From: Candidatus Krumholzibacteriia bacterium
GTDB taxonomy: Bacteria; Krumholzibacteriota; Krumholzibacteriia; JAJRXK01
Assembly (NCBI GenBank): GCA_041484665.1
Contig: JBGPIA010000005.1
Location: 179,342 to 243,341, forward strand
DNA: 64,000 bases
Direction: 5' to 3'
Shown here: in pieces, positions 44,245-63,349 of the stretch
Numbering within the stretch: position 1 is the stretch's first letter
How the letters are laid out: every line of letters starts with the position of its first letter
Position numbers and translations under genes: made by a program
The notes under the pieces: generated by a model
Database searches by the model: none
Told to the model about the DNA's origin: nothing
Seen by the model: only the letters and a program-made list of their open reading frames with translations

Positions 44245-44330
44245 CGGGCGGCCTGCGGGCGGAGGCCGTGTTCGCTCGCCTCCCGCGATGCGGCAGGTGC
44301 GGCGGATGGGTCGTGTCTGCAAGTTGGGAT

Positions 44331-44372
44331 GGGCCGCTAGCTCATCTGGTAGAGCAACGGACTTTTAATCCG
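44331..44372 (+). tRNA. tRNA-Lys(TTT), 5-prime part only (truncated; probable att junction)
   Basis: GGGCCGCTAGCTCATCTGGTAGAGCAACGGACTTTTAATCCG followed by non-tRNA sequence; no T-arm or CCA. Confidence 0.85.
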
Positions 44373-44536
44373 AAAACTGCGCCTCCACGGCCCCGTTCCT
44401 AAGCTCCACTCCGAGCAATTCTTCAACAGCGCGACTTGCGCGTTTGTGCCTTGTTTTGTAGGATTTCCTGCGCGACGCACACCTTGTCAGCGCGTCGCAG
44501 CCAGGGTCAGCCTGGGTCAGGCGTGCGCGGCGCAAT

Positions 44537-44560
44537 CGGAACCTGAAACGGAACCTGAAA
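44537..44560 (+). repeat. perfect 12-bp direct repeat, candidate integrase arm-type sites
   Basis: cggaacctgaaa x2 between the tRNA junction and integrase start; imperfect ccagggtcag/cctgggtcag pair at 44501-44520. Confidence 0.6.
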
Positions 44561-44581
44561 AACGCCCTGGAGGGTGGGGAG

Positions 44582-45808
44582 ATGCGCTTCTCAGACCGCG
44601 GCATAGCGGCGCTGAAGCCACGGGTGCGGGCGTATGACGTGCGGGAAGCACGCGGGTTCACCCTGCGGGTCTGGCCGAACGGCACGAAATCCTGGCACTA
44701 CGTGTACGACCTACACCGCAAACGCCGACGCTTCCACCTCGGCACGTACCCGCTCCTGAGCGTGGAGGCCGCACGCCAAGCGCACGAGCACGCACGAGCC
44801 CAGCGAGCCCAGGGAATCGACCCCTCCGTTGCGGCCGCGGAGGCACGCACAGCCGCAGCCGCCCAGGCGGTCCAGGAAGCCGCAAGCGCCCCAACGGTTG
44901 CGTGGCTGGTCGCGGAGTACATTGAGCGCTGGGCAAAGCGACGCAAGAGGACGTGGCGTGAGGACGAGCGCATCCTCCGCAAGTACATCCTCCCCCACTG
45001 GGGGGACCGGCAAGCCGCGTCCATCACGCGCCGCGACGTGAACACCCTCCTCGACAGCCTCATTGATGGAGGCATGGGAGCGGGCGCGAACAGGGTCTTT
45101 GCGATCACGCGCAAGATGTTCAACTTCGCACTCGCCCGCGACTTCGTCTCCGCTTCGCCCTGCCACCAAGTCAAAGCACCTGCACCCGAACACCGCCGCG
45201 ACCGGGTCCTCACCGCGGACGAAATCCGCGCATTCTGGACTGGCCTAGACGATGCGCTACTACCGCCCGGCACGAGGAGCATGCTGCGCCTCGCACTCCT
45301 CACTGCGCAGCGCATCGGAGAAATCGCCGGCGCACGCTGGGACGAATTCGACCTCGACGCGGGGTGGTGGACGATTCCCGCGGAGCGAGCCAAGAACAAG
45401 CTTGCCCACCGCGTCCCCCTCACCAAACCAGTACTCCGCATCATCGCCGAAGCACGCTGGACCAGTCAGGCGTCACCCTACGTCTTCCCCGCGCACCGCG
45501 CAGGACAACCCGTCCGTGTCAGCACGATAGGCCACGCCCTACGCGAATGGCTCACCAGCGACCAGCGACCCGCAGGCCTTGCAGCATTCACCGCCCACGA
45601 CCTACGGCGAACAGCCGCCAGCCACATGACAAGCCTCGGTACACCGCGCCTAGTAGTCGCAAAGATCCTGAACCACGCAGAACCAGGAGTCACCGCCACC
45701 TACGACCGGCATGCCTACGACGCCGAAAAACGCGACGCCCTCAACCGCTGGGCAACCCACCTCGAGACACGCACCAAGAACCACGAGCGCACCAGCGCGG
45801 AGGCATGA
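44582..45808 (+). CDS. tyrosine integrase (P4-like, N-terminal arm-binding domain)
   Basis: LRVWPNGTKSW..LGTYP.LS; catalytic TAQRIGE, AKNK, HDLRRT, ILNH, TYDRH. Confidence 0.95.
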   Translation: MRFSDRGIAALKPRVRAYDVREARGFTLRVWPNGTKSWHYVYDLHRKRRRFHLGTYPLLSVEAARQAHEHARAQRAQGIDPSVAAAEARTAAAAQAVQEAASAPTVAWLVAEYIERWAKRRKRTWREDERILRKYILPHWGDRQAASITRRDVNTLLDSLIDGGMGAGANRVFAITRKMFNFALARDFVSASPCHQVKAPAPEHRRDRVLTADEIRAFWTGLDDALLPPGTRSMLRLALLTAQRIGEIAGARWDEFDLDAGWWTIPAERAKNKLAHRVPLTKPVLRIIAEARWTSQASPYVFPAHRAGQPVRVSTIGHALREWLTSDQRPAGLAAFTAHDLRRTAASHMTSLGTPRLVVAKILNHAEPGVTATYDRHAYDAEKRDALNRWATHLETRTKNHERTSAEA

Positions 45809-45976
45809 CAACGACCACGACCCAGCACGGAAAGCCACGCGACGCGAGCGTGGATCAGGGCGGCGCTCCTGCGTCTGGAATCCGTGTGCACAACGGCGCG
45901 AGGCGGATCTGATCGCAACCAACAGACGCACCATCGCGATCGACCTGACGAGCATCCTGAGGAGGGCGGAGCGGGT

Positions 45977-46838: not shown

Positions 46839-46899
46839 AAAGGCCACCGGAGTTTGACCTTCACCCACGTGGTCAGTGCCTGGCTGCCGACGGAGCCTG

Positions 46900-47445: not shown

Positions 47446-47776
47446 GGCCGACCTCCTGAGGGACAGGCTCTGCTACGAGGCTTTCATAGTACGCTTGGAT
47501 TTCCGAGGTAATTTTGGGGTGGGGGGCCGCCGCACCCGACGGCGCGGGCGGCAACTGCGGCAGGAGGTCGTGGGGGTCCACCCCGAGCACACCAGCGATA
47601 TGGTAGATGGCGTGCACCGGCGGGCGCTGCTTGCCCTGCTCCACGTTCACGATGGAGATCCGGCTCAACCCAACCAAGCCTGCGAGTCGGCCCTGGGACA
47701 GCTTCTGCTGCTCCCGAGCCCTCCGGATTCGGCGGCCAATCTCCGCGTAGAGCGCCCGTGCCTGATCGTACGCCAT
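47366..47776 (-). CDS. XRE-family HTH regulator
   Basis: IGRRIRRAREQQKLSQGRLAGLVGLSRISIVNVEQGKQRP; overlaps the peptidase start. Confidence 0.9.
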   Translation of the reverse strand: MAYDQARALYAEIGRRIRRAREQQKLSQGRLAGLVGLSRISIVNVEQGKQRPPVHAIYHIAGVLGVDPHDLLPQLPPAPSGAAAPHPKITSEIQAYYESLVAEPVPQEVGHGLARNPSKGRKGTGRRGGGAASSSR

Positions 47777-47858
47777 GCTGGCACCATAGCTGTCCTGACA
47801 CTAAGACGTCTACCACGATTACACTGTATGCCACAGCTACAGATCTACGAAAATCAGG

Positions 47859-47886
47859 TTGACAGCCTGGTGACCGTGCGTATCCT
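47859..47886 (+). promoter_or_regulatory. candidate sigma70 promoter for the divergent operon
   Basis: TTGACA-N16-TATCCT in the AT-richer intergenic region. Confidence 0.55.
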
Positions 47887-47948
47887 GGCCCGCAATCCGC
47901 CGTCTCGCCCCAACGCGCGGAGCTCTCGTCACCAGGAAGGAGACGCCG

Positions 47949-48209
47949 ATGGCCGACCGCCAGGTCGCCCGCAGCCGCAAGGACAAGTTGGGCGACATCA
48001 CCGCGCTGTGCAATCCCGCCGAGTCCTGGTCGCCACGATCGAAGTTGGACGCGATCAGCGACATTGAGCTCGGGATTCACAGCTACTACGTCCTCGTCGG
48101 CGGCGCACGCGCCAACATCCACGTCGTCAACGGCCCGGGTGGCAAGTACCTGCGCACGAGCCACGACATGACGACCCACAACAACCTCGATGACCTACCC
48201 GACTGCTAG
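47949..48209 (+). CDS. DUF3892-like small protein
   Basis: RBS aaggag; DAISDIE.G..YYV..VVNG..KYLRT..D.T.NNLDDLP. Confidence 0.75.
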   Translation: MADRQVARSRKDKLGDITALCNPAESWSPRSKLDAISDIELGIHSYYVLVGGARANIHVVNGPGGKYLRTSHDMTTHNNLDDLPDC

Positions 48210-48243
48210 GTGCAGCCGGGTAGGCCCAGAAGGAGCGGAGACG

Positions 48244-48429
48244 ATGAGCGAGCACTACAAGCCCGGAGAGAGAGTCCCACGCTCGGGGCAGTACCAGCGC
48301 GTCGGCAAACGAGGCGGAGCCGGCCCGGAGGTGACTGGCACAAAGGGAGAACGTTTCCCACCCACGCCGGAGAGGGGACAACGGTACCGGCTCGTCGACC
48401 CGACCAAGAACAAGTCGGGCCGACCGTAG
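48244..48429 (+). CDS. YjzC-like small protein
   Basis: YKPGERVPRSGQY..G.RGG..EVT..KGERFPPT; RBS ggag. Confidence 0.75.
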   Translation: MSEHYKPGERVPRSGQYQRVGKRGGAGPEVTGTKGERFPPTPERGQRYRLVDPTKNKSGRP

Positions 48430-48565
48430 CGCGCGGCGGAGCCCGGGCACCCGACCGCCGGGCCAATGCCCACGCCCGAGCGTGCTGTCGGACGGACCGC
48501 GCGACGCAGGACGAGAACGCCGCTGAGGCCGCGAACCACGTGGTCTTGGGATGAGGAGGTTGACG

Positions 48566-49117
48566 ATGACGACGATGACCGCGTTCCTGGCACACTCTAC
48601 TAAAGACGCCGCGCTTGTACGTCGCGTAGCCCGTGCGAGCCGGCGCAGCGGCTTCACACCCTACCTACACGAGAACGACCCGCGGCCGGGAGAACCCCTC
48701 CACGCGAAACTTCAAGACGCGATCAGCTCCTCCGACGTGGTGATCGCGCTACTCACGCGCGAGGGCACAGAATCTGCGTACGTGCACCAGGAGGTGAGCT
48801 GGGCCCTCAAGGCAGACAAACGCGTCATCCCGCTCCTCGCACCAGGAGTACCCGCAGAAGCGCTCGGCATGTTGCAGGGAACCGAGCACATCCCCCTCGA
48901 CCCCACCAACCCGACGGCGGGGATACGCACGCTGGGACGAGCACTGCGGCGATACCAGCGCCAAGCTGCATGGCCGTGCCTGCTGACCTTGATCGCTGTA
49001 TGGGCCGGTTGGAAATGGTGGCTGCGCACACGCTCAGCGGTTAGCGTCCAATCCAAGGGCGTAACGGCATCACATACACGCAGCACCACGGCACCGATCG
49101 CGGCGAGGGATGTGTGA
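48566..49117 (+). CDS. TIR-domain protein with C-terminal hydrophobic segment
   Basis: AFLAHSTKD, DAISSSDVVIALLT, SAYVHQEVSWA (catalytic Glu), KRVIP; RBS gaggagg. Confidence 0.85.
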   Translation: MTTMTAFLAHSTKDAALVRRVARASRRSGFTPYLHENDPRPGEPLHAKLQDAISSSDVVIALLTREGTESAYVHQEVSWALKADKRVIPLLAPGVPAEALGMLQGTEHIPLDPTNPTAGIRTLGRALRRYQRQAAWPCLLTLIAVWAGWKWWLRTRSAVSVQSKGVTASHTRSTTAPIAARDV

Positions 49118-49662
49118 TGTCAAAGGCGTTCGATACCTCAGTGGACGAACTCAGGCGGGTTTGGGCCGCGTCGGACCACTTCGATTCCAAGGTGCTCACC
49201 TTCACGGGCCTTGTGGGAGCGGCGTTTGCACTCATCGCGGGCCAACTGCACCGCATGCCCGGTCTGCCCGTCTGCGCAGCCGTGCTCGTTTGGGTCGCGC
49301 TGTTATCGCTCGGCGCCTTCGCCGTCCTCGCGCTAAGCGCAACCTTCTGGATCCGCGGGGCAGGCGCGGTCAACCCGCAGCAAATTGCCGAGCACCCCGA
49401 GTTCCTTAAGGACGATGAGCTATTCGAGGCCAAGGCCTCAAAGTCACTCGGTGAGGCGTTCGCTCGTTCGCTCGCACAACATCAGCGCAAGACCGCACGA
49501 TTCAAGGTTGCGCAGCTCGTCCTTGTGGCCGCCGGGTTTAGCTTCGGCGCCGGGCTCATGGTCTGGTACATTCAAGCATCAAGGCCGCAGCCAGCTCTAA
49601 CGTCGACACGAGTGCACGCGGTCCCTGACACGACTGCCGTGCGTGAAGGAGTACAGCGATGA
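49117..49662 (+). CDS. 3-TM membrane protein
   Basis: TGATG coupling to the TIR gene; three hydrophobic helices. Confidence 0.7.
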   Translation: MSKAFDTSVDELRRVWAASDHFDSKVLTFTGLVGAAFALIAGQLHRMPGLPVCAAVLVWVALLSLGAFAVLALSATFWIRGAGAVNPQQIAEHPEFLKDDELFEAKASKSLGEAFARSLAQHQRKTARFKVAQLVLVAAGFSFGAGLMVWYIQASRPQPALTSTRVHAVPDTTAVREGVQR

Positions 49663-49781
49663 CGCAGAACGAGTGGAAGTACGACGGCGAGCGCCCTGAG
49701 TCCGCGCCGCCAGAACCACCCGATACTGCTCCGGAGCTCGCCCCCTACGAGATCTCCAGAGGGCTTCCAGACGGCAGCTGA
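49659..49781 (+). CDS. 40-aa Pro/Glu-rich small ORF
   Basis: ATGA overlap, RBS aaggag; MTQNEWKYDGERPESAPPEPPDTAPELAPYEISRGLPDGS (below ORF-track cutoff). Confidence 0.45.
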   Translation: MTQNEWKYDGERPESAPPEPPDTAPELAPYEISRGLPDGS

Positions 49782-49898
49782 GTGGCAGCGCAGGCGGGTT
49801 CGCCCGGTGCGCTCGCTGAGTGACGTAATTGGTGCGAGCGGCACCAAAGCGTTCAGCATTAGGGGGATCGCTCTCAAGCCAGCGTGGTAGACGGATTT

Positions 49899-50961
49899 AT
49901 GAAGACACTTTTTGTCATGGGCGCCGGCGCATCCCAAGCGGCGGGCTCGCCGCTCATGCAGGACTTCCTGGACCGGGCCGAGCAACTCGTCAAGGGGAAT
50001 GCCCTGAACGACGCGCCGGCAGCACACGAGGCATTCAGCGCCGTCTTCGACGCGCTCGAGGACCTGCAGCGGACGCATGCGAAGTCAGCCATCGACCTGG
50101 ACAATCTGGAGGCGGTCTTCAGCGCGTTCGAAATGGCAGGGTTCCTTGAGCATCCACCGATGCGGACACCACACGCAGACGTCCGCAAGGCGCTCGTGCG
50201 GCTCATCTGGACAACCTTAGGAGAAGAGCAACACCTTCGCCATCACGGGCGACGGGTTCCGGGTCCCAGAATCCTATGCCCAGTTCTTCGACCTCCTCGC
50301 CGGACTCCGCAAGCAGCAGGCGTACGGCGATACCGACTACTCCTTCATCACCTTCAACTACGACCTCGTTCTCGACGTCGCACTTCGCGCGAATGGCTGG
50401 TCGGTCAACTACGGGCTCACCGGCGCGCAGGGTGGCGTCCCCTTGCTAAAGCTGCATGGATCCATCAACTGGGCCGAGTGCGCGGAATGCCGCCAAGTTC
50501 TTGACTTCAACTTCTGCGACATCGACTTCCGGCGAATAGCAAGCGTCCACTCAAGTGTGCATCTTCCGGTGACAGCGCAGCTCCCGAAGATGGAGCACTG
50601 CGGAACGAAGGTTAGCGACGTGCCCTTCCTCGTGCCGCCGACCTGGAACAAGAACGCGACGAACCCGTCACTCCTCAATGTCTGGAAGCGAGCCGCGCAG
50701 GAGCTGACCACCGCGGAGAACATCTTCGTAATCGGCTACTCCCTGCCGGCAACAGACCTCTTCTTCCGCTACCTCTTCGCACTCGGAACAACCGGACCTA
50801 CCCGGATAAAACGGTTCTGGGTCTTCAACCGCGACCCAACCGGGGCCACCGAGTCACGATTCCGAGAACTCGTCGGCCCGGCGCTGCGTGCGCGCTTCCG
50901 CTACATACCATGCCTGCTCAGCGGCGTGGCCTCGATCCTGAGCACGCAACTGGGGAGCTGA
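49899..50961 (+). pseudogene. SIR2-like (SIR2_2) NADase-fold protein, one frameshift
   Basis: FVMGAGAS; one extra G at about 50220; corrected frame gives ITFNYD, LLKLHGSINW, CAEC, LVPPTWNK, IGYSLP.TD. Confidence 0.8.
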
Positions 50962-51219
50962 AGCTTTGTGGCCGCTGCACTTCAGGACTGGCACTGCAGT
51001 CGGCGGTACGGTGGCCGACGACGCGATCCCGGAACAGCGGGAGCAAGGCCGCCGGGACCTGGTCGCTAAGGGGGATACGCACTGATGTCAAGCGCACTTA
51101 GCCGTTCGCGGCGCGGCGGCGCGCGAGGAGCCGGGCGACGCGGGTCTCGATTAGGTCACCCGCTATAGCCCTGATTGGGTGTGCCCAACGTTGCCGCTCA
51201 ACTGCGAGCGCACCCGCGC

Positions 51220-51879
51220 TCACGATGGGAATTCGTCGGGCCTCACTGCGCGCCCGATAGCCGCAGCGGCGAATCCGGCGGCTCCAGCGTGCTCACGCGC
51301 ACTGAGCCGGCTCCCTCGATCGTGCGCGGCCCCGGGAGTGACGGCCTCCGTCGTCGCGATGATCAGCCAGAGGAGGACCACGAACAACCCCAATGCGCGT
51401 TCTATGACGAACACCTTTTGGCGAAGAATGAAGGTTCCGAGCCATCCTTGTGGCAACGAATGCGCGGCCGAGAGATGGTCGAAACTGATGCTCCTCGGGC
51501 CAGGGCGCCCGACTAGAAGCGCGTGGATCCGCTCGAAAGTTGAGAGGACGGCGCCCGCAGAGGTGTTGATGCGGATCTCGACCTCGCGCGCCTGGAACAA
51601 CCGCAGCAGGTAGATCTGGATGAAATGTTCAATGGTCGCGACCGTCAGCAACGAAAAAAGGAACCCCGTCACGGCAAGAACGATCTTTGCCGTGTAGGCG
51701 CCTACAGAGAAGACGGCGGCTAGCAGACCGCCATGGAGCGCAAAAAGCGCCAACATCCGCTGATAGCCCACGTTAAGCACCGTATTGTACAGCTGCACTG
51801 CACTCTGGTATTCCACCAAGAGCACCTTCAGCTCAGGAGAGATGTCATCGCCCGACGCCTTAGATATCGTGGTACTCAT
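51220..51879 (-). CDS. small multi-TM membrane protein (RipA/SLATT-like layout)
   Basis: LLVEYQ..Y helix followed by two TM helices, a soluble loop and a third TM helix; AT-richer codons. Confidence 0.55.
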   Translation of the reverse strand: MSTTISKASGDDISPELKVLLVEYQSAVQLYNTVLNVGYQRMLALFALHGGLLAAVFSVGAYTAKIVLAVTGFLFSLLTVATIEHFIQIYLLRLFQAREVEIRINTSAGAVLSTFERIHALLVGRPGPRSISFDHLSAAHSLPQGWLGTFILRQKVFVIERALGLFVVLLWLIIATTEAVTPGAAHDRGSRLSAREHAGAAGFAAAAIGRAVRPDEFPS

Positions 51880-52716
51880 GTAAACCTGCCTGCCACAGGC
51901 CGCTCAACGGCGCGGCGGCTCCGTGGTGGACGGGATTGTGAGCTTGTTCGCGGGATCGCCCGGCTGCTCCAACTGCCAGATAGTCCGGCACTTCGTTGCG
52001 GGTGCGCAACGTCCGGACTATCCAGCAGTTACCTGCGACAGTAATCCTGTGCAATGGGTAGCGACGTACAGTCTATCGCGCCAGCTGCCCGCTGCCAAGC
52101 TACTCGCAACCCATGTTGCCGGAAGCGGTTGCGGCTCTGCGCGGGCCAGGCTGTCCCTGCGATACATCCCGCCGCATCGCCGTGTATCCGGCTCGACGGC
52201 GCGCGCACCGCACCGTCAAGAGCCCTCGTCGACGAGGCGCGCACCAGCGGTAGGTGTAGGCCCCGACTGGTGGTCGCATGGCCGGATGATCGGTGCGCGC
52301 TCTGGGCGGCGGTGGCGCTACTCCGCGATCTGTTCTGACCAGAGCGCGGTCTTGGCGATGGCCCGTAGGGCGCGCTCCAGCCAGGAGGAGCGGAGTGCGT
52401 TTGGGCCGTTCGGCAGCAGGACAGCGCCGAACCAGCAATGGAGTCGCAAACGGGCTTGCGCGCCGCCGGCTGATAGGTGTACTGTCCCCAGTTGGTGGCG
52501 CTCGTGCGAGCCGCTCATTCGGTTCGGCGAGTATTGACCGGGTCCCACACCCACCGCCACACACCAACGCCGCTCGCGCCCCGGCCCATTCTCGCCCGTT
52601 CGCGGTTCGAAGCATCACGCCCTCACGCCGTTCGCCACAAGCGCAAACCGCCGAAGCCGCTCTGTTCCCAATGACGGCTGAGCCCGTCGTACACCCATTT
52701 TCAGGGAGGTACGGTC

Positions 52717-54450
52717 ATGAGAAGGAGCTCATTCTGCACCCAGGGCGTACTCGTCCTCGCAGTTCTCGTGCTGACCTGGGTGGTCGGTTGCGAGAAGACG
52801 CCTGGCCCGGTCGGCGGCGCGGCCGAGCCTGCATTCTCGGCGGCGATTCCGCCGTCATCCCCCGTCCTGCACGGGGCGATCATGAGCCCCCTCGAGGGCG
52901 TAACGACCGCATGGCAGCCCGTGCGTGACGGCGACGTGATCCCGATTCCGCGCGGCGTGCCAGTGGAGTTCGGGTATCTGGACGCGGAGGGGTCGCTTAT
53001 CTCGTGGGTTGGGGCGACTGAGACGCGCAGGGATGGCGGGGCATCGTACGCGGTCTGCCCCGTGGACCAGCTGGGTGACATGCACGTGCGCGTGGACGCA
53101 ACAACCGATGGCGGCGGACAGCAGCTCGGAACGCGCACAACCCGCTTCACGGTGAGAATCGTCGACGCCGACGTGGCGGGATTCGCCGTACTCGACGCCA
53201 CAGTGACGGTGGAGCCACTTCTCGTGCGGGACAATGCCTCCAACTTCGAGACCATGCAGGCGTACTTCGGGGGCTCGATAACGATGCTAGCGGAGGTCGG
53301 GCCTGGACACTACCGCACCTCCGTACAGCGAGCCTGCCAACTGACCGCGACGGTCAGCAACCCAGGGCTCGCCCGCCTGACAGAGTGGCGCGTCGACGGC
53401 GTGCCCGTGCTCTTCGGAGGCGCCGTCACGGATGGGTTCGCCGGCGTGGGTGCCCATCATGTTTCCATCGGCCCGCCAAGCCGCGCTGTGGACCTCCAGA
53501 TTGACACGTACGACGTGACCATCAAGAAGCCCGCAGGCGTGAGCGGACCCCTGCCGGAAGGAGAGAGCTTGACGTTTGCGGCCGTCACCAGTCCGCCTGG
53601 CCTCGAAAGCCAAGTCACCTGGCTTTCGAGCACAAAGTACGGCTCGGCACTGCCCGTTCTGGGGCGGGGCCCCAGCTTCACGGTCCAGTTCGACCAGTCC
53701 TGGGGGCAGGGGGATGGAAGCGTCCAACAATGGCTGGGGGTACGCGCGGACAACGCCCTCGTCGAGCAGGACCAAGTCTTCTCGAGTATGGCTTTTGGCA
53801 GCCGGGGCGTGACGGTCACAGTGCCCACCACCAGCCTCAATGTCCCCGCCAATCTCGACGGAAACCTAGCGGTGTCCGGCATCGGAGTCGTCAATGGCTC
53901 GGTGCAAGTCACGTTTAGCGGTCCGATCGTGGTCAGCGTGGCAGTAGCCAACGACCAGACTGTGGCGAGCACTGCCGGCACGAGCGTGGACTTCCTCGTG
54001 GGCGACGCCGCGCATGTAAGCTCCGTGCGGGTGAACGGGGTCCTGACCCCGCTAACCACCCTCGTCAGTCAGTTCGCCGCGGACGCGGCAACTGGCAACA
54101 ACCCAGCGACGTGGTCTCCGCTTGGTCGGATCATGCTTGGGATGTTGGCATTGGAGATGACGCCGGAATGGCGCGCAGACGTCAGCGTCGAGCGGTCAAG
54201 CTGTCCGGTGACGGCGCACAAGGCCGAGCCCGGATTCTGGTGCCGGTTAGACGCTGCTGTCGGGTCGGCCTGCCTTCTCCTCCTCGTGGCCGGAACATGT
54301 GCCGCATTGCTGGCCCCGTGTGGGGCAGCAACCACGATCACCTTCGGCGGGGTAGTCTTCCTGTGCGTCCCACTCATTGCCGCGTGGGCCACCCTCGCCA
54401 CCGGTGGCGCCGCCGGCCTCTACGCGTACATCATATCAATCTGGTGTTGA
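52717..54450 (+). CDS. lipoprotein, conserved N-terminal region + Cys-rich hydrophobic C-terminus
   Basis: RBS ggaggt; lipobox VVGC; paralogous to 55193-56827 up to QDQV. Confidence 0.75.
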   Translation: MRRSSFCTQGVLVLAVLVLTWVVGCEKTPGPVGGAAEPAFSAAIPPSSPVLHGAIMSPLEGVTTAWQPVRDGDVIPIPRGVPVEFGYLDAEGSLISWVGATETRRDGGASYAVCPVDQLGDMHVRVDATTDGGGQQLGTRTTRFTVRIVDADVAGFAVLDATVTVEPLLVRDNASNFETMQAYFGGSITMLAEVGPGHYRTSVQRACQLTATVSNPGLARLTEWRVDGVPVLFGGAVTDGFAGVGAHHVSIGPPSRAVDLQIDTYDVTIKKPAGVSGPLPEGESLTFAAVTSPPGLESQVTWLSSTKYGSALPVLGRGPSFTVQFDQSWGQGDGSVQQWLGVRADNALVEQDQVFSSMAFGSRGVTVTVPTTSLNVPANLDGNLAVSGIGVVNGSVQVTFSGPIVVSVAVANDQTVASTAGTSVDFLVGDAAHVSSVRVNGVLTPLTTLVSQFAADAATGNNPATWSPLGRIMLGMLALEMTPEWRADVSVERSSCPVTAHKAEPGFWCRLDAAVGSACLLLLVAGTCAALLAPCGAATTITFGGVVFLCVPLIAAWATLATGGAAGLYAYIISIWC

Positions 54451-54639
54451 AGCAGACCTGAGGGCGAGACAAGCGCAAGGGAACATCTGGCAAGACGGTC
54501 GGAAACGGTCCGATGGGAGAGGCCTGGTAGAGGCGGAGATGACTGACGTGTGCCGCGCCGACCGAGAGGCGTGCCGACGCGGCATCTGCCGGAGCCGCAT
54601 GGGCGGGGGTCAGGTGGACATGAAGGTGGGCGGTGGGGG

Positions 54640-54740
54640 ACGGTGGCCGCCCTGGAGACCTTCGGCAGCCACGCCGCCAACTTCCACCCGCACATACACG
54701 CCATCGTACCCGACGGGGGCGGCGCCCCGGACGTCCGCTT
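54640..54740 (+). mobile_element. IS91-family (HUH) transposase remnant
   Basis: ETFGSHAANFHPHIHAIVPDGG HUH motif; rest of gene absent. Confidence 0.65.
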
Positions 54741-55192
54741 CGAAGGGCCATCGATGCGGAGCTCCGCGTCCCCGACGCGATGAACACGCCAGCGGCAGCA
54801 AGCGCGCGCACACGACACCACGACGCAGCAGCGCGACGCTGACGCGCAGGGGCGCACGGCGGCGTTGCCCCCGCGGTCGCAGCACCCCGATCAGCGCCTC
54901 GACGGCCGGGTGGGAGTACGCGATCGGCTGCGCCTCACGATTCGTGGGGGGAACTCGTCGGTGGTTTGCGTCTCTACAGGTACGCAGCCGGACGGACCGC
55001 CCACGCCCGGCGCGGATGTTCGGCGACGCTCACGCCCTGCCGGCCGCGCATGTCGTGCGTGACGGGCCTGCCGTGCACCCAAGGGTACTGCTCCAGACCC
55101 GGCCACGACTGGGGGCGTCCGCGCGCCTCACCCACCCCCCGGCGCCCGCCCCGGCACGCACGCCGCGGTCAGCGGTCAAGGAGGACCCTACC

Positions 55193-56827
55193 ATGCCGCG
55201 TCCCACCCACGACGTCACGCACCGGCAACCCCGGCAAACGTGCACACTCCCGCTACTCGCGCTGCTCGTCCTCGCGGGCTGCGCGCATGACCTACCAACC
55301 ACGCCCGCGCGCAGCACCCCCACCGACTCTCAGACCAGCGAGGCCTCGACGCTCCTGGGACTCCAAATCGGACCCCTCGAAGGACTCACCCAGGCATGGC
55401 ACACGATCACCCCAGCAACCCCCCTGCTCATCCCGCGGGGTACGACCCTGCAGCTGCGCTGCGACGCTGACGCGAACGCACGCACGCAGTGGACCGGCGC
55501 GGACGAGACCCAGCGCGACGCGACGACCACCTGGGCGTCAGCACGCATCGGAACCGGCGTGCACAACATTCTACTCCGCATCACCCAACCCGACGCGGAA
55601 CCCCGGGTGTACCGGTGCGTGATAAAAGGAGTCGCCCCAACCACCATCCCCAGCCTGCGCGAAGCCACCCTCACCCCCGCACCCCTCGCCGTCAGCCCGG
55701 AAAGCGAGTCCAGCCAGGATATGCGCTCCTTTTTCGCCGGCTCAAACGCCGTCCTACAAAGCGGCGCTGACGGCACGTACGAGACGTCCGTGGCACGCGG
55801 CCTGGACGTACATGCCACCAGCGACACGCCGGCGTACGACGCGCTCATCGAATGGTCCCTCGACGGCACACCCCGCGCGCTCGGGTCGTCGACACGCATC
55901 ACGCTTGACACGCCGGGACGCCACCACCTCACCGCGCGCCTCGCACGCAGTGAGCGGGACCTCCTGGTCGACGCGTACACCGTGCGGATCCTGCGTGAGG
56001 GTGACCGCGCACGCCCCATCCAAGACGGCGTGGTCGCCACGTTCTACGCCGTCACAGACCCCCCCGGACACGAGCACGACGTCACCTGGCGAGCCGACAC
56101 GGCCGCCGGCACGGTCCTACCCCAAGTCGCAGAGCCCGGCCGCTTCAGCGTGGTCTTCGAGGACACGTGGACCACGCGGCCCGACGGGCAGCGATTCCAG
56201 TGGGTCGGCGTACGCGGGGACAATGCGATCGTCGTGCAGGACCAAGTCGACCCCGTCGTGTACGGCGTCGAGCAAGTAGGCGGAGAGTGGTGGGCGTACA
56301 TCCGCACGCGCAGCGGCCAACCACTCATCGCGGCCCCCTTCGACTACACCACCGCGGTCATGGACACGTCACGCACCACCATCCTGGGGTACGACGAAGC
56401 AGGACTCACCAGCCTCGAGAACACGCCCAACACCGCACAAATCGCCCTGCTGCAAAGCACACCCGCACAGGTCGGAGCATTCCTGTGGCAGGACGGCTTC
56501 CCGAACTTCCCCGGCTCGGACGCGCAACGCGCCATCCTCAGCCGCCTCTCCCAGATCCTCATGTACATCGTCCACGCAGCGGTGCAATTCATCCTGGGCA
56601 CGACCTGGACGCCGGACGGGTGCACGAACGCCCCGGACTTCAACTTCAAGGACTGCTGCGACGACCACGACCACTGCTACTGCACGGGCGGCAACGAAGC
56701 AGCACGCAAACTCTGCGACCAGAAACTCCGCGACTGGATAAAAATGCGCGGCCACCCCATACTCGCACGCATCTACTACTGGGCCGTACGCGCATTCGGC
56801 AAAAGCCACTTCAACTACACAAGCTAG
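55193..56827 (+). CDS. lipoprotein, conserved N-terminal region + phospholipase A2-like C-terminus
   Basis: RBS aaggagga; lipobox LAGC; DGC..CCDDHDHCY..GG..R..CD..YYWAVRAFG. Confidence 0.78.
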   Translation: MPRPTHDVTHRQPRQTCTLPLLALLVLAGCAHDLPTTPARSTPTDSQTSEASTLLGLQIGPLEGLTQAWHTITPATPLLIPRGTTLQLRCDADANARTQWTGADETQRDATTTWASARIGTGVHNILLRITQPDAEPRVYRCVIKGVAPTTIPSLREATLTPAPLAVSPESESSQDMRSFFAGSNAVLQSGADGTYETSVARGLDVHATSDTPAYDALIEWSLDGTPRALGSSTRITLDTPGRHHLTARLARSERDLLVDAYTVRILREGDRARPIQDGVVATFYAVTDPPGHEHDVTWRADTAAGTVLPQVAEPGRFSVVFEDTWTTRPDGQRFQWVGVRGDNAIVVQDQVDPVVYGVEQVGGEWWAYIRTRSGQPLIAAPFDYTTAVMDTSRTTILGYDEAGLTSLENTPNTAQIALLQSTPAQVGAFLWQDGFPNFPGSDAQRAILSRLSQILMYIVHAAVQFILGTTWTPDGCTNAPDFNFKDCCDDHDHCYCTGGNEAARKLCDQKLRDWIKMRGHPILARIYYWAVRAFGKSHFNYTS

Positions 56828-57029
56828 GAAACAACACGCACGGACACGCGTGAACGCAGAACACGGCAAACCAGCCACCGGCGCCCCGGAGTGCCGCAGC
56901 AGCCGCCCGCCGCGCCGCGGCGTCCGGTGCCTGCCCAGAATCAAGCCGCCGCCCGCCCGGCCGCGCGGTCCGCCGCCGCGCATCCCGTTGTCCCTGGGCA
57001 TGGGTCCCCCAACCTACCGGCCGAAGCTG

Positions 57030-57325
57030 ACCTCGACCCCTCGGTGGGCAGCGTTGAGGACTCCTACGACAACGCGCTGGCGGAAACGATCATCGGGCTG
57101 TTCAAGACGCAGCTCATCCAGCATCAGGGCCCGTGGCGGCACGCCGAGCAGCTCGAGTTGGCCACGCTGCGCTGGGTGGGCTGGCACAACAACGCCCGCT
57201 CGCTCGAGCCCCTGGGCTACGTGCCACCGGCGGAGTTCGAGCAGGAGTACTATCGCAGGCAGGAAGCTCTGGCCACGGGGGCCGGAGTCAGACAAACGAA
57301 TCTCCGACGAACACGGGGCGATTCG
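57030..57325 (+). mobile_element. IS3-family transposase C-terminal remnant with degenerate right end
   Basis: SVGSV.DSYDNALAETIIGLFK..GPW..ELATLRWV.W.N..LGYVPPAEFE followed by tctccgacgaacacggggcgattc. Confidence 0.85.
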
Positions 57326-57327
57326 CT

Positions 57328-58047
57328 ATGCGCGTTCGCACAGCAATCAGTGCTTCCGCCGCCCTTCTCGCACTTATTGTAGCTGCGAACATCTGGGGCG
57401 TGATGGAGCACCTGGTCGACACCCTCTGGAATGCGCTGCTGCGCCTCCTCGAGCATGTCTCCTGGACGGTAGTGGTCCTCATCACCGTCTGGTTGCTCCG
57501 CAAGCAGCTGGCTGAGCTCATCGTCAGTATCGCGCACAAGGTGGGAAAGCTCGCGGGGTTTGGGAGCAACCAGTTCTCAGCCTCGTTCTGGCCCGAGCAA
57601 GGCCCCGCAGGCCCCCCGCCCGGCGGGGAAGCCGTGCCGCGGCGGCCTCGCAGACCGAGCCCGAAGGCGCCAGCCCAAATCGCATTCCCAGCAGAGGTCC
57701 AAGCAGCGATGGACGCGGAGGTCGCCCAACTTGGGATCGCCCCCACGGCTCTGGGAACAGAGGCGGTCGAGCTTCTTTCCACCTTGCTCATCCACGAGGA
57801 GGAGCATGGCCTGGGCTGGCCGGGCACGTGGGGCATGAACATCACCGGGCCCTCCGAGGTGCGAGAACGATTCGACCGTGGCGTTCGTGAGACACTCCAG
57901 CGCGACCTCGTGGTGCGATTCCACGACGATGCGGGCCGCCCGATGATCGGGCTAAGCTTCACGGGACGCGCGTTCTGCCGGCACTTCAGAGCGGCACTCT
58001 CCGGCGACCTCTGGGAAGAAGCACGACAAGCACAGATGCAGCAGTAG
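57328..58047 (+). CDS. hypothetical membrane-anchored protein
   Basis: N-terminal hydrophobic helices (VSWTVVVLITVWLLRKQL) plus a soluble domain; start may be MEHLVD. Confidence 0.5.
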   Translation: MRVRTAISASAALLALIVAANIWGVMEHLVDTLWNALLRLLEHVSWTVVVLITVWLLRKQLAELIVSIAHKVGKLAGFGSNQFSASFWPEQGPAGPPPGGEAVPRRPRRPSPKAPAQIAFPAEVQAAMDAEVAQLGIAPTALGTEAVELLSTLLIHEEEHGLGWPGTWGMNITGPSEVRERFDRGVRETLQRDLVVRFHDDAGRPMIGLSFTGRAFCRHFRAALSGDLWEEARQAQMQQ

Positions 58048-58348: not shown

Positions 58349-60115
58349 ATGGGTACTGCAAGGCATCATCTCGTCGCAGCCGTACTGATCTGGGGCGCCA
58401 CGGGCGGCTTACTTCCCAACCCCGCGCGCGCGGAAGCGAGAGGAGCACCCTGGCCCTCCGCGCAGGCCCTCGCTGGCACATGGCGCGTCGCAGCAACCGG
58501 CGACCTCGTATTCCCCGCTGACGCCTGGCACCTTCGCATTGGATAGCGATGCGAAGGTGACTCCCTGAAAGGCGACGCTGTGATCCTCGCCAGCGGTTTT
58601 CGCTTCACCACGATCGCCCTGGGCTACGACGCCGCGGCACACGTATGGCGCGGCCCTTGGAGTCCGTTCGGTGGCGTCCGGGTCTGCTTCGACAGTCTGG
58701 GAAGCTCCGCGGTGGGACGCCACATCTACGCGACCCGGTGGGACACCCTGCAGGTCTTCAGCCCGATGGTGTGGTCGCGCGTGAGTGACGCGCCGGCGAT
58801 CAACGAGCTCTTGACGAGTGGCGCGGCCTTGGAAGCGATGCAACGCGGTGAGCCGCTCCTCTACAAGGACATTCAAGGGACCATCAATGCCGGCAGCATG
58901 AAGTTCTCACACAGAGTCGTGGTTCTGGACAGTCGATTCGAGGGTGCCGTCAATTTTACGCAAGCTCAGTTTCTTCAAGGCGCAGATTTCGGCCGCACCG
59001 AATTCAAAGACATCGCCACTTTTGTCTGGGCGAGATTCCTACGTAATTGCAGCTTTGCAGGCGCCCGGTTCAGGAACCAAGCCCTGTTCAGCTACGCGCA
59101 ATTCGCTGCGACGAACCCGAATCACGATGGCGTATTCCTTCTGAATGGCGCGCAGTTTGCAGATGTTGCCGACTTCCGTGCGTGCAAGTTCGAGGGTACC
59201 ACATGCTTTGGAGCTGGTGACTTTGTACGCGGTGCGTCGTATTTCAATTCCAGCCATCAGGTTCTCGACTTTACATGCGCGCGATTCCACGGAGAGCTCG
59301 ACCTGTCTGGGCTGGTTGGTACGGCATTGCGTCTCGGAGGCTTGCGTGGCGAGGACGTGCTCGTGACGCGCGCCCATGAGCGAAGCGTATCGTTCCTGCC
59401 GCACCTGCCGACGAGTGCCGATGCCCCGGTCTCAGCGACTGAGCCCACGCGAATTCACGGAGTGGTCAGCCTGCGCGCGGCGGCCGTAGACACGCTTGTG
59501 TTGGAGGAGGTGACGATCGATGGTGATTTGTTGCTCGAAGACGCCAACGTACAGAAGCTAAGCATGTTCCGCACGCATGCAGGCGCCTGCCGCATGGATG
59601 GAATCCGACTGCAGGAGACGTTGAGCATGGACGCGCTGAGTGCACAGGGAGTCGTGGGGAGCGTGGCCGAAATCCTGCCGATGGGCGCGAGCCGCAGCGG
59701 GTTGGACTCGCGGACGCTCGCTGCCCTGGCCGAGCCGATGAGGGCCCAGGGGCGTCCCCGAGATATGAACGATCTACTCCTTGGGGCCAACTGGAAAGAG
59801 GGCCGGGAGCTCTGGGCGCGTCGCGATGTGCCCGGGTTAGCGGAGTGGATGGGTTTGCTGATGGTGGGATTTGGCCGAAGCGCCACGCTTGTACTGCTCA
59901 TGCAGGGCTTAGCGGTAGTCGCTTTCGCCGGAGCGTTTTGGGTCGGGGGGAGCCGAACAACGGCGTGGAATGCCATGGTCCGGCGGCCCAGAAACACGGA
60001 AATCACCTTCTGGTGTGTTGCCGCTCACGACCAACCGCCGAATTCTGGACATCTCGCCGTGGGTGCTGAGTGCAGCGCTGCTTTCATTCCCCGTTCCGTT
60101 CCGGCGTTAGCATAG
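58349..60115 (+). pseudogene. pentapeptide-repeat protein with in-frame TAG, C-terminus probably cut by the IS21-like element
   Basis: ORFs 58343-58546 and 58580-60115 share one frame, separated by TAG; F.GA.F/A.F repeats; TM helices then abrupt change near 60010. Confidence 0.65.
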
Positions 60116-61085
60116 AAGTGGGTACGGGTATCATGGGGCGCAGTGCGAAGCCTCCGTCGCGGCGCTCGATGCGGCGCTCGGCGCGCAGGCGCGCCAGCGC
60201 CTCGCCGAGCGTTGCGTTACGCGTGCGCGTTATCTGTCGCAGGGCGTCGCGGCCGAGCGGCGCGGCGGCAGCCTCCAGGGCGGCGAGGATGCGGTCAGCG
60301 AGCGCCGTGGTCGTGGGTTCAGGCAGGGTGTCGGTCGGCACGACGCGCAGGTGCGGCGCGGGCTCGCCCGCCAGTTCCAGGACGGCGGGTGGCGGTGCGG
60401 GTGCGCTGCGGTGTTCGGCGGAGAGGATGAGCTGCCGTTCACGCCTGCGCAGAAAGAGGTTGCTGTCCCCCCAGGCGTGCAGATCGCCGGAGCCGCGCAG
60501 CGCACGGCCATCCGCGGGCCCGCCCTGCTTGCGCAGGTGGTGCACCAGGATCAGTGCCAGCCCGTAGTTGCGCTGCAGCAGCCGCAGCTCGGCCAAGAGC
60601 GCCGACATGTCACCCGCCGAGTTCTCGTCGATGCGATGGAGCCGCACCAGCGGATCCAGGACCACCAGCCGCGGACGGTGGCGTTGCACGGTTGCTTCCA
60701 GCCGCGCCCGATCGCGCTCGGTGTCCAGACGCAAGCTCGGGCAGAGGATCAAGCCCACGTCGAGGCCGGCCAGCGCAATGCCCCGCGCTCGGGCGATGGC
60801 CTCGATGCGCGCACGCAGCGCGGCCGGCGCGTCCTCGGCGCCGTAGAAGAGCACGGCCCCGGGGTCGGCCACGCCGAAGCGGCCCAGGGCCGGCGTACCG
60901 CTGGCGACGCTGACCGCCAGATCCAGCGCCAGCCACGTCTTGCCGCACTTGGGCGCGCCGCCGATCAGCCCCACCCCCTGCCGGCTCCACAGACCCTCGA
61001 CCAGCCAGGGGCGCGCCCCAGGCTCGGCGGGCACCGCATGGGCCAAGACCACCGTCAATAGCTCAGCTTGCAGCGCGGGCGCCAC
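60084..61085 (-). CDS. AAA_25/RecA-like ATPase with C-terminal HTH
   Basis: WLVEGL, GAPKCGKT, AED, LVVLDP, LVHHLRK, LRGSG. Confidence 0.85.
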   Translation of the reverse strand: MAPALQAELLTVVLAHAVPAEPGARPWLVEGLWSRQGVGLIGGAPKCGKTWLALDLAVSVASGTPALGRFGVADPGAVLFYGAEDAPAALRARIEAIARARGIALAGLDVGLILCPSLRLDTERDRARLEATVQRHRPRLVVLDPLVRLHRIDENSAGDMSALLAELRLLQRNYGLALILVHHLRKQGGPADGRALRGSGDLHAWGDSNLFLRRRERQLILSAEHRSAPAPPPAVLELAGEPAPHLRVVPTDTLPEPTTTALADRILAALEAAAAPLGRDALRQITRTRNATLGEALARLRAERRIERRDGGFALRPMIPVPTSMLTPERNGE

Positions 61086-61860
61086 GGCCGCGGGCCTTCT
61101 GCGCGAGCTCGGCCTCGCGCTTGCGGTAGCTGTCTCCCTCGATGCGCAGGATCTCCGCGTGGTGCGTCAGGCGATCGATCAGCGCCGTGGCACAGGCGGC
61201 GTTGGGGAAGACGGTGTTCCAGTCGGCAAACGCCAGATTGGTCGTCAGCACGATCGCCCGCCGCTCGTAGCGGCGCGAGACGATCTGGAAGAGCAGGTCG
61301 GCCGCGTGGTTGTCATAGGACAAGTACCCGACCTCATCGATGCACAAGAGCGCGGGCTGGGCGTAGTGGCGCAGTCTGCGCTCCAAAGCGCGCGCGGTTT
61401 CCTGCTTGGCCAAATCCAGCAGCAGGTCGGAGGCGGTGGTGAAGATGGCGTTCGCGCCGCCCAGCACCGCGGCATGGGCGAGATTCTTGGCGATCATCGT
61501 CTTGCCCAGGCCCTGGGAGGCCACCAGCACGACATTCTCGCCGCGCTCGAGGAAGCCCAGGCCCAAGGCCCGCTCCATCGCCGCCCGATCGATCTTGCGC
61601 GGCCACTCCCAGTCGAAATCGGCCATCGGCTTGAAGCGTCCCAGATGCGCCCGGCGCAGGCGACGCTCCACGCCCTTGCGGGCGCGCTCCTGTTGCTCCA
61701 GCCGCGCCAGCTCCTCCAAGAGCTGCCGCGGCGAGTAGCGGCTGCGGCTGGCCCGCGCCAGGAAGTCATCGAGCTCGTCGGCCACCAGCCACAGGCCCAG
61801 CGCGCGCAGCGCCTCCGGCAGGTCAGGCGTCGGGGTCGTCGTCGCGTTCTCCGAGGGCAT
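61063..61860 (-). CDS. istB: IS21 helper ATPase
   Basis: [42 protein letters not shown]. Confidence 0.93.
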
Positions 61861-63322: not shown

Positions 63323-63349
63323 CGCCGCACCTCGCAGGTGCACCACCGC

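What the first reader, a model, noticed from the sequence alone, without database searches (positions are those of the whole stretch)
52717..56827. Paralogous lipoproteins with a shared ~350-aa N-terminus and unrelated toxin-like C-termini: candidate new polymorphic-toxin family
Seen: both genes have an RBS and lipobox and align block by block (PLEGVTTAW/PLEGLTQAW, IPRG, W.GA.ET.RD, YFGGS/FFAGS, YRTSV/YETSV, EWRVDG/EWSLDG, AVTSPPG..VTW/AVTDPPG..VTW, QWLGVRADNALVEQDQV/QWVGVRGDNAIVVQDQV). Similarity stops right after QDQV (53778 and 56248), where 13 nt are identical (gcaggaccaagtc). Beyond it the proteins are unrelated: one ends in a hydrophobic Cys-rich segment, the other in a PLA2-like domain. 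Known: a conserved carrier, a sharp junction motif and a variable tip is the architecture of CdiA (VENN), Rhs (DPxG) and MafB toxins. Inference: the N-terminal region, which I cannot assign to a family, is a surface-anchored carrier for exchangeable effectors. No immunity gene is evident, so variable enzymes or adhesins remain possible.
Basis: partly seen in the sequence, partly recalled or inferred. Interest (0 to 1): 0.82.

Follow-up and report, generated by a model that had tools for sequence, protein, structure and literature searches.

The report
Three-Ig module carrying swappable secreted cargo
The two genes belong to a rare, uncatalogued bacterial protein family in which one conserved three-part front end is repeatedly fused to very different secreted enzymes and small disulfide-rich proteins, only a minority of them toxin-like, so it looks like a general surface-display or export tag rather than a classical toxin-immunity system.

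Summary
Observation confirmed: two lipoprotein genes in a tRNA-Lys integrase island share a ~300-aa region (31% identity, E 1e-39) that ends at QDQV; their tips are unrelated. The region is an uncatalogued module of three Ig/PKD-like domains (pLDDT 94.5). It has at least 285 relatives at E<=1e-30, in Phycisphaerae, Acidobacteriota and 5 of 208 genomes of the host's phylum.

Tips swap exactly at the module's end: 176 tips form 105 clusters, and trees that keep same-tip carriers together are rejected. Tip B is a phospholipase A2 behind a ~120-aa domain; tip A ends in a hydrophobic Cys hairpin and also occurs without the module.

The polymorphic-toxin label fails its tests. Only 13 of 176 tips are strictly toxin-like (30 counted generously), Pfam found no nuclease tips, and 39 of 40 informative loci lack a plausible immunity gene. 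Many tips are proteases, Ig-like or Cys-rich domains.

Best reading: a mobile display or export module fused to existing secreted proteins, like APD1/2 or MafB-N but spread across phyla; these two cargoes may be antibacterial. The module's mechanism is inferred.

The parts
52705..52709 (+). Ribosome-binding site GGAGG of gene A
   Evidence: sequence
52717..54450 (+). Gene A, 577-aa lipoprotein: signal/lipobox, three-Ig module, tip A
   Evidence: module match E 3.7e-107 to profile A2, which includes it
52717..52791 (+). Signal peptide II of A ending VVG-C25
   Evidence: sequence; rule-based call
52867..53778 (+). Conserved module of A (aa 51-354): Ig-like D1 ~51-151, D2 ~152-267, D3 ~268-354 ending WLGVRADNA...QDQV; D3 most conserved (19 of 87 columns >=90%)
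   Evidence: AlphaFold2 pLDDT 94.5, pTM 0.85; fold searches; conservation
53779..54231 (+). Tip A front part: beta-rich domain plus helices, ending in a conserved V-x-R motif (54187-54195) and a linker; possible pro-domain (inferred)
   Evidence: alignment A4; model mean pLDDT 63.9, no fold match
54232..54447 (+). Tip A end: hydrophobic Gly/Ala/Cys-rich two-helix segment GFWC...ISIWC; possible membrane-active peptide or membrane anchor (inferred)
   Evidence: pLDDT about 30-50 here; hydropathy 1.75 over the last 60 aa, 2nd of 172 tips
54631..54743 (+). Remnant of a Y2_Tnp transposase (IS91-type, family name recalled) between the two genes; 12 related copies elsewhere in the genome
   Evidence: Pfam Y2_Tnp E 1.1e-6; blastn and tblastn
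55179..55184 (+). Ribosome-binding site AGGAGG of gene B
55193..56827 (+). Gene B, 544-aa lipoprotein: signal/lipobox (Cys30), three-Ig module, pro-PLA2-like tip; codon usage differs from A and from core genes (T3 0.03, A3 0.15)
55352..56248 (+). Conserved module of B (aa 54-352), ending QDQV
56249..56605 (+). Tip B front domain (~120 aa), shared with P0064 and P0116; possible pro-domain or inhibitor (inferred)
   Evidence: alignment A3, 41-42% identity over the whole tip
56606..56824 (+). Secretory phospholipase A2 domain, DGC...CC-x-x-H492-D493-x-C-Y intact
   Evidence: PDB 4aup (group XIII PLA2) E 0.0014, 8k1w E 0.0024, 7ygk E 0.0077; PF09056 E 0.0011, below its curated cut-off
56891..57382 (+). 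Integrase-core (rve_3) transposase remnant right after B (IS3-type, name recalled), where an immunity gene would be expected
   Evidence: Pfam rve_3 E 1.7e-6
44330..45808 (+). Left end of the island holding both genes: 43-nt piece identical to tRNA-Lys(TTT), then a tyrosine integrase (44582-45808)
   Evidence: GC mostly 61-68% over 44-60 kb against mostly 67-75% before

Best explanation
The shared region is an uncatalogued, horizontally spread N-terminal add-on module of three packed Ig/PKD-like beta-sandwich domains. It follows a Sec signal peptide (a lipoprotein signal here and in its nearest relatives) and is fused in frame, at the end of its last strand (QD-x-K/V), to the front of existing secreted proteins. 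It most likely holds the cargo at the cell surface, as a rigid stalk and through a conserved binding face on domain 3, much as dockerin, PKD or APD-type domains do. Shown: fold, family size, sharp junction, repeated cargo exchange, cargo existing without the module, absence of linked immunity genes. Inferred: the display or attachment role, the binding partner, and exchange by recombination at the conserved module end. In this window it carries a phospholipase A2 (B) and a hydrophobic disulfide hairpin (A), each behind a 120-140-aa front domain. Both would act on membranes from outside and could be antibacterial, with the front domain keeping them inactive until cleavage (inferred by analogy to halocin C8 and HalI).
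For: Three tandem Ig-like domains, pLDDT 94.5, pTM 0.85; best per-domain matches are PKD/Ig domains of surface proteins, Z about 9. 485 relatives at E<=1e-3, 285 at <=1e-30. 176 tips fall into 105 clusters, 79 of them singletons; median Cys 3.4% in tips against 0.35% in modules. In 34 pairs of modules at least 60% identical with different tips, identity falls from 0.59 at the last module residue to 0.18 and then about 0.1. The nearest module shares its tip cluster in 7 of 171 cases. AU tests reject one clade for tip-A carriers (p 9e-50) and for PLA2 carriers (p 2e-5). Cargo includes trypsin, subtilase, M23, S11, DUF922, beta-lactamase-like, FG-GAP, TIG, CARDB, PKD and dockerin domains. Tip A occurs alone behind a signal peptide and a short EF-hand/dockerin-like motif (P0156). 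Two cargo families occur in the host genome at places with no module. In L019 the next gene is a secreted M10-like metallopeptidase, as if the module had been added to the first gene of an existing pair (inference). Genomes hold 1-3 full copies at scattered places.
Against: No binding partner or surface location was shown. No transporter or anchor gene recurs beside the module. Its strong conservation (median 38% identity over all pairs; 19 near-invariant columns in D3) is more than a passive stalk needs. The two cargoes in this window, plus Rhs, DUF7689 and DUF4347 cargoes, do look like toxins. The 150 representatives are clustered at 50% identity, which removes same-tip close relatives and inflates the apparent rate of swapping. 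About 125 of 155 proteins have no Pfam-named tip and could hide unknown toxins. The motif in P0156 is called dockerin-like from memory; Pfam gave no hit.
Confidence: 0.58

Rival explanations
1. A true polymorphic toxin or effector family. The module delivers interchangeable outside-acting toxins (PLA2, cell-wall hydrolases, hydrophobic Cys peptides, Rhs). Separate immunity genes are unnecessary because the front domain of each tip inhibits it, or because the targets are distant organisms such as protists.
For: Carrier, sharp junction and variable tip. Zhang et al. list Tox-PLA2 as a polymorphic toxin domain with no immunity protein listed (PMC3482391, passages). Four Rhs fusions: L009, L035, L044/P0038, L077. 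11 tips end in hydrophobic Cys-rich segments and 6 are M23/S11/beta-lactamase-like. Both genes sit in an integrase island with defence-like genes. Halocin C8 carries its immunity inside its precursor (10.64898/2026.07.27.741052, passages).
Against: Strictly toxin-like tips are 13 of 176, generously 30 of 176. No nuclease, deaminase or ART tip was found by Pfam. One plausible immunity-like neighbour in 40 informative loci, and it follows a subtilase tip; none at the 3 Rhs loci examined. No orphan cassettes in the host genome. No halocin C8 model hit among 45 proteins. Many tips are Ig, TIG, CARDB, PKD, FG-GAP or dockerin domains.
Confidence: 0.2
2. The module is an N-terminal export or maturation signal recognised by a dedicated, unidentified machine (outer-membrane translocon, folding helper for disulfide-rich cargo, or self-cleaving unit). 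It releases or covalently displays whatever follows QD-x-K.
For: D3 and the junction Asp are near-invariant (T291, E297, G341 100%; W302 99%; D352 97%). The host's third copy lacks D3 and has no cargo. Cargo is Cys-rich, and 68 of 176 tips end in Pro against 14 of 151 neighbouring genes. An ECF sigma gene lies within about 2 kb upstream in 6 of 30 loci, 4 of them with a Ser/Thr kinase beside it.
Against: No transporter gene recurs among neighbours. A presence in 5 of 208 genomes of the phylum with 1-3 copies fits poorly with a dedicated machine unless it is a general one. Tip A exists without the module. The terminal-Pro control is crude and not limited to secreted proteins.
Confidence: 0.17
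3. No special system: an ordinary PKD/Ig-type stalk that drifts among secreted proteins like many accessory domains. The two adjacent copies were gathered by chance in an IS-rich island.
For: Weak PKD hits in several members. Atlas nearest clusters are PKD proteins, score 0.87, under the 0.9 mark. A and B are only 33% identical in the module, are not sisters with support, differ in codon usage and are separated by an IS remnant.
Against: The three domains travel as a fixed unit just after the signal peptide, or after a dockerin-like part, with one shared end point. Free PKD repeats vary in number and place (general knowledge).
Confidence: 0.05

Closest known systems
Amoebophilus APD1/APD2, Microscilla-N and MAFB-N constant N-terminal domains (Zhang et al. 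2012, PMC3482391, section 37 read whole)
   Same: Signal peptide, with a lipobox for APD1/2, then a conserved domain, then very different C-terminal effectors; proposed surface anchoring; parallel deployment of varied cargo, some not toxins (APD).
   Different: Those domains are confined to one genus or species. This module spans Phycisphaerae, Acidobacteriota and the host's phylum at 1-3 copies per genome. It has no MafA-like partner gene, no immunity arrays and no host-directed ubiquitin-system cargo was seen. Sequence similarity to APD and Microscilla-N was not tested directly.
Classical polymorphic toxins CdiA (VENN), Rhs (DPxG), MafB, TANFOR (PMC3482391 background read; PMC7073777 abstract and section list only)
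   Same: Constant carrier, conserved junction motif, exchanged tips; some members carry a complete Rhs core and a PLA2-like or metallopeptidase tip.
   Different: No linked immunity gene, no orphan cassettes, no nucleic-acid toxins found; most cargo is disulfide-rich and non-toxin.
PKD / bacterial Ig-like and dockerin accessory domains of secreted enzymes
   Same: Ig beta-sandwich fold (Z 9.1 to the PKD domain of the archaeal surface protein 1l0q); weak PF00801 hits; appended to hydrolases; found together with dockerin domains.
   Different: No Pfam or NCBIfam model covers the module; it is a fixed three-domain unit with its own motifs and no whole-length structural match (Foldseek TM <= 0.28 in the PDB rows shown).
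Group XIII/XIV secretory phospholipase A2 (PDB 4aup, 1faz; Tox-PLA2) for tip B
   Same: DGC...CxxHDxxY core with the His-Asp pair.
   Different: Preceded by a ~120-aa domain of no known family and tethered to a lipoprotein module.
Halocin C8 precursor ProC8 (HalI + C8) for tip A (10.64898/2026.07.27.741052, passages)
   Same: Secreted precursor with a front domain and a short C-terminal peptide (76 aa in C8, ~72 aa here). That C8 is Cys-rich and hydrophobic is recalled.
   Different: No hit to halocin models in NCBIfam or Pfam; analogy only.
VARTIG of Thermococcales (PMC8416519, abstract and section list)
   Same: Ig-domain surface proteins with a variable C-terminal part, organised like polymorphic toxin systems, function unknown.
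   Different: There the variable part is itself an Ig domain and the gene heads a variable gene cluster; here the genes stand alone and carry unrelated folds.

Membership tests
Polymorphic toxin systems (Zhang 2012) | Constant N-terminal trafficking or anchoring domain after a signal peptide | tested here: met
   Module follows a signal-like N-terminus in 145 of 155 proteins by a crude rule. Its role in trafficking is inferred.
Polymorphic toxin systems (Zhang 2012) | C-terminal domains exchanged by recombination at a fixed point | tested here: met
   No active exchange was seen in 4 runs of this population.
Polymorphic toxin systems (Zhang 2012) | The variable domains are toxins | tested here: not met
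   13 of 176 strictly and 30 of 176 generously toxin-like; many named tips are general proteases or Ig-like. Most tips are unnamed, so hidden toxins are possible.
Polymorphic toxin systems (Zhang 2012) | Chromosomally linked immunity gene | tested here: not met
   43 loci examined, 3 too short; 1 of 40 has a plausible candidate (L033); none after genes A or B. Gene calls were by a crude composition score.
Polymorphic toxin systems (Zhang 2012) | Standalone toxin-immunity cassettes for replacement | tested here: not met
   tblastn of 176 tips against the host genome finds only A, B and scattered genes of two cargo families; none downstream in the window. Other genomes were not tested this way.
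Polymorphic toxin systems (Zhang 2012) | Demonstrated toxicity to related bacteria | not testable with these tools
   Needs bench assay
PKD domain (PF00801) / bacterial Ig-like families | Ig-like beta-sandwich fold | tested here: met
PKD domain (PF00801) / bacterial Ig-like families | Score above the curated cut-off of a Pfam or NCBIfam model | tested here: not met
   No hit for P0001, P0002 modules. A few relatives reach about the PKD cut-off on the whole-protein score (P0068 25.7, P0141 24.5 against 23.5). NCBIfam: 2 single weak hits among 20 members, E >= 0.079.
APD1/APD2, Microscilla-N, MAFB-N | Restricted to one genus or species and expanded there | tested here: not met
   Found in several phyla at 1-3 copies
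APD1/APD2, Microscilla-N, MAFB-N | Sequence homology to those domains | not tested
   No direct comparison; only the absence of Pfam and NCBIfam hits
Secretory PLA2 groups XIII/XIV (tip B) | DGC motif and CxxHD catalytic segment in a small helical domain | tested here: met
   (E 0.001-0.008; below the PF09056 cut-off)
Secretory PLA2 groups XIII/XIV (tip B) | Ca2+-dependent phospholipid hydrolysis | not testable with these tools
   Needs enzyme assay
Halocin C8 family (tip A) | Match to the halocin C8 or HalI models | tested here: not met
   No NCBIfam hit at E<=0.01 for tip A and relatives; no Pfam hit
Halocin C8 family (tip A) | Shared fold | tested here: inconclusive
   Model of tip A is low-confidence (mean pLDDT 63.9); best Z 6.0 to generic helical hairpins

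The most novel reading that the evidence does not exclude
The module is a cross-phylum export or maturation tag: an unrecognised envelope machine, or the module itself by self-cleavage at QD-x-K, handles any disulfide-rich cargo fused behind it. This lets uncultured Planctomycetota, Acidobacteriota and the host's phylum field immunity-free outside-acting weapons (pro-PLA2, a new class of hydrophobic Cys pro-bacteriocins, Rhs) alongside digestive enzymes, some under ECF/kinase control.
Probability: 0.17. Interest if true: 0.82.

Novelty: new variant of a known kind. Interest (0 to 1): 0.52.

Why it matters
It defines an unmodelled domain family (at least 285 distant members) that marks secreted cargo in poorly studied phyla, and it gives a ready list of about 100 unrelated, mostly unnamed extracellular domains with exact boundaries. 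These include candidate antimicrobials: a pro-phospholipase A2 and several hydrophobic Cys-rich peptides. It shows that the 'constant front, variable tip' design need not mean a toxin-immunity system, and that such front domains can cross phyla, whereas the described examples are confined to one genus. If the module proves to be an export or display tag, it points to envelope biology not yet described in these bacteria and could serve as a display scaffold.

Tried and rejected
Homodimer prediction of the module gave no answer (score 0.00); this is no evidence either way.

The 13-nt identity as a recombination site is rejected as ordinary (71 of 903 pairs). A and B as a recent duplication is rejected: 33% module identity, no supported sisterhood, different codon usage. 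Tips A and B as distant homologues is rejected.

No relatives in viral contigs: 0 of 19 candidate stretches; viral structures give only generic Ig matches. No solved relative by sequence (best E 0.33). No fold match for tip A; the Atlas gave only unnamed clusters under 0.8. No standalone form of tip B among proteins of 105-336 aa (0 of 91 candidates); other lengths were not searched.

No RNA holder listed, so expression is untested. No joint at either QDQV junction in 4 runs of contigs; contigs drop rare variants. The multi-copy element between A and B was considered as a cassette site, but it is a transposase remnant with longer copies elsewhere.

PF26780, precomputed for P0008 only, is not in the held Pfam; it appeared on 1 of 13 proteins, so it probably lies in that tip, unverified. 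Cluster look-up named an organism for 1 of 10 proteins.

Literature searches listed no paper describing this module. They cover only the held open library; Additional File 1 of PMC3482391 (APD and Microscilla-N alignments) was not read. Look-ups of earlier findings by sequence and by words found no note on this family.


Full report
OBSERVATION. Gene A (52717-54450, 577 aa) and gene B (55193-56827, 544 aa) are real open frames with ribosome-binding sites and lipoprotein signals. They are 31% identical over about 315 columns (E 1e-39). Similarity ends at QDQV (53778 and 56248), and the tips are unrelated (probability 0.1%). The 13 identical nucleotides are ordinary: 71 of 903 pairs of module ends share such a run. 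The 24 listed public runs that hold the stretch are sediment metagenomes. In four laid runs, contigs of X3 and X5 bridge both junctions with no differences, and no joint at QDQV appears.

SETTING. The genes lie in a lower-GC island that begins with a 43-nt piece identical to tRNA-Lys(TTT) and a tyrosine integrase and runs to the contig end. A Y2_Tnp transposase remnant separates A from B, and an rve_3 transposase remnant follows B. B's codon usage differs from A's and from core genes. The modules are 33% identical and are not supported sisters, so the two genes probably arrived separately (inference). A third, 2-domain copy with a lipoprotein-like signal and no cargo lies on contig C1. Earlier scan notes call the host probably Krumholzibacteriota; I did not verify the name.

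THE MODULE. Pfam and NCBIfam have no model for it, and no solved structure is related by sequence. AlphaFold2 on a 20-row alignment gives three tandem beta-sandwich domains, pLDDT 94.5, pTM 0.85. Fold searches return generic Ig/PKD domains: best Z 9.1 per domain, no whole-length match. The Atlas's nearest clusters are PKD proteins at 0.87, a lead only. Domain 3 is the most conserved (19 of 87 columns at 90% or more, against 11 of 101 and 6 of 116); the searches behind searches used D3 patterns, which may bias this. A profile finds 485 representatives at E<=1e-3 and 285 at <=1e-30; I saw the best 150. Named genomes are mostly Phycisphaerae/Planctomycetota and Acidobacteriota (22 loci). It is rare: 5 of 208 genomes in the host's phylum, 1-3 full copies in each of 21 carriers, 0 of 19 viral candidates. 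A crude rule finds 123 signal-peptide-like, 22 lipoprotein-like (several wrongly) and 10 truncated or unclear starts among 155.

THE TIPS SWAP. From 183 module-bearing sequences, the 176 tips of 40 aa or more form 105 clusters, 79 of them singletons. In 34 pairs at least 60% identical in the module but with different tips, identity drops from 0.59 at the last module residue to about 0.1 beyond it. The nearest module shares its tip cluster in 7 of 171 cases. This is inflated, because the library collapses relatives above 50% identity. Independently of that, AU tests on a 27-row subset reject one clade for the three tip-A carriers (p 9e-50) and the three PLA2 carriers (p 2e-5). The groups were defined from tips, the subset was chosen, and P0002 is a long branch. 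Six rows of atypical module length were left out of the large tree.

WHAT THE TIPS ARE. Pfam scans of the 155 proteins, NCBIfam on 45 and 6 of the 28 added locus proteins name about 30 tips. They include trypsin, subtilase, M23, S11, DUF922, beta-lactamase-like, Rhs, DUF7689, DUF4347, DUF6073, FG-GAP, TIG, CARDB, PKD and dockerin. No nuclease, deaminase or ADP-ribosyltransferase appeared. My hand tally is 13 of 176 strictly toxin-like (3 Rhs, 3 PLA2, 2 DUF7689, 5 DUF4347; reading the last two as papain-like and caspase-like is recalled). Adding 11 hydrophobic Cys peptides and 6 cell-wall-type enzymes gives 30; 12 more are general proteases. Tips are ten times richer in Cys than modules. 68 of 176 end in Pro against 14 of 151 crudely called neighbours; this is unexplained and the control is weak. 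Cargo exists without the module: tip A alone behind a signal peptide (P0156, 45% identity), and two cargo families elsewhere in the host genome.

TIP B is 41-42% identical along its length to two other module-borne tips and ends in a secretory PLA2 domain with His492-Asp493 (PDB 4aup E 0.0014; PF09056 E 0.0011). TIP A has a beta-rich front domain, a conserved V-x-R motif, and a 72-aa hydrophobic Cys segment modelled with low confidence as two helices; no fold or family matches. Both read as front domain plus a ~75-aa membrane-directed unit. [quoted passage not shown] The tip A helices could instead be a second membrane anchor.

NO IMMUNITY SYSTEM. Zhang et al. call linked immunity a key feature of polymorphic toxins (PMC3482391, background read whole). 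Of 43 loci examined, 3 were too short; of 40, one (L033, a subtilase tip) has a plausible small co-oriented unknown gene. The other close neighbours are a toxin-antitoxin pair, transposases, transporters, a metallopeptidase or opposite-strand housekeeping genes (most of these names are my reading of the translations). The only recurring neighbours are ECF sigma factors and Ser/Thr kinases: an ECF within about 2 kb upstream in 6 of 30 loci, with a kinase beside it in 4. Kinase-linked ECF groups are known (PMC7826278, passages). No matched background was available for those genomes.

MECHANISM. Shown: a fixed three-Ig unit after a signal peptide, fused at its last strand to many unrelated extracellular domains, spread patchily across phyla, with no immunity apparatus. 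Inferred (0.58): it displays or tethers its cargo at the cell surface, is added to existing secreted genes by recombination, and here is lipid-anchored with two possibly antibacterial cargoes. Rivals: an immunity-free toxin family (0.2), a dedicated export or processing signal (0.17), a drifting PKD stalk (0.05).

COMPARISON. It works like APD1/APD2, Microscilla-N and MAFB-N (PMC3482391 section 37) but is not lineage-restricted. It is not a member of the classical polymorphic toxin systems, failing on toxin content, immunity and cassettes. TANFOR (PMC7073777) and VARTIG (PMC8416519) were seen as abstract and section list only. Six literature searches listed no description of this module.

VERDICT. 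Real and uncatalogued; a new variant of a known design; interest 0.52.

Noticed in passing
G000:C1 ~973830-974660 (L001:9813-10754, -): Third copy with a lipoprotein-like signal, only domains 1-2 and no cargo; hints that domain 3 goes with cargo.
   Followed up: partly
window 44330-45808 and G000:C40:3715-3789: 43-nt piece identical to tRNA-Lys(TTT) next to a tyrosine integrase; the full tRNA is on a 9.8-kb contig, and the island runs off the end of contig C5.
   Followed up: partly
window 45711-51879: Defence-like genes in the island: PDC-S32-like part (E 1e-29) apparently in two frames, CapP-like IrrE peptidase with an HTH partner, DUF3892, a TIR protein with a hydrophobic end followed by a membrane protein, and a weakly SIR2-like gene in two overlapping ORFs (49884-50504, 50443-50961).
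   Followed up: no
window 60084-63772: IS21-type element (IstA, IstB) with an extra AAA_25 ATPase gene and a small Cys-rich ORF; its end near 63850-64000 recurs at several contig ends.
   Followed up: no
window 54631-54743 and 12 other places in G000: Y2_Tnp transposase remnants are scattered through the genome, four on contig C28 within 15 kb.
   Followed up: partly
window 55001-57000: Gene B region is strongly C/A-skewed on the coding strand (GC skew about -0.2, AT skew +0.22 to +0.27; third-position T near 0 in the tip), unlike A or core genes.
   Followed up: no
family-wide (P0003-P0155, loci): 68 of 176 tips end in proline and 74 have a Cys in the last four residues; possibly a C-terminal stability or sorting feature of secreted proteins in these phyla.
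   Followed up: partly
L013, L033, L037, L046, L047, L052 (upstream), L023 (downstream): ECF sigma factor, often with a Ser/Thr kinase, next to the module gene.
   Followed up: partly
L069:1120-3204 (+): Tip made of many short C-P-x-x-x-T-type repeats, resembling a repetitive peptide precursor.
   Followed up: no
P0016 / L081:274-2481 (-): Two modules in tandem, the second with a dockerin-like insert inside domain 1, then a 50-aa Cys-rich tail.
   Followed up: no
L009, L035, L044 (P0038), L077: Signal-peptide Rhs proteins using this module as their front end, with different Rhs tips (PLA2-like by my reading, M35 metallopeptidase, unknown) and no evident immunity gene in the three examined.
   Followed up: partly
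window 42033-44183 (-): Glycosyltransferase-like membrane protein with a long Ala/His/Pro-rich N-terminal repeat region, next to the island edge (name from my reading).
   Followed up: no
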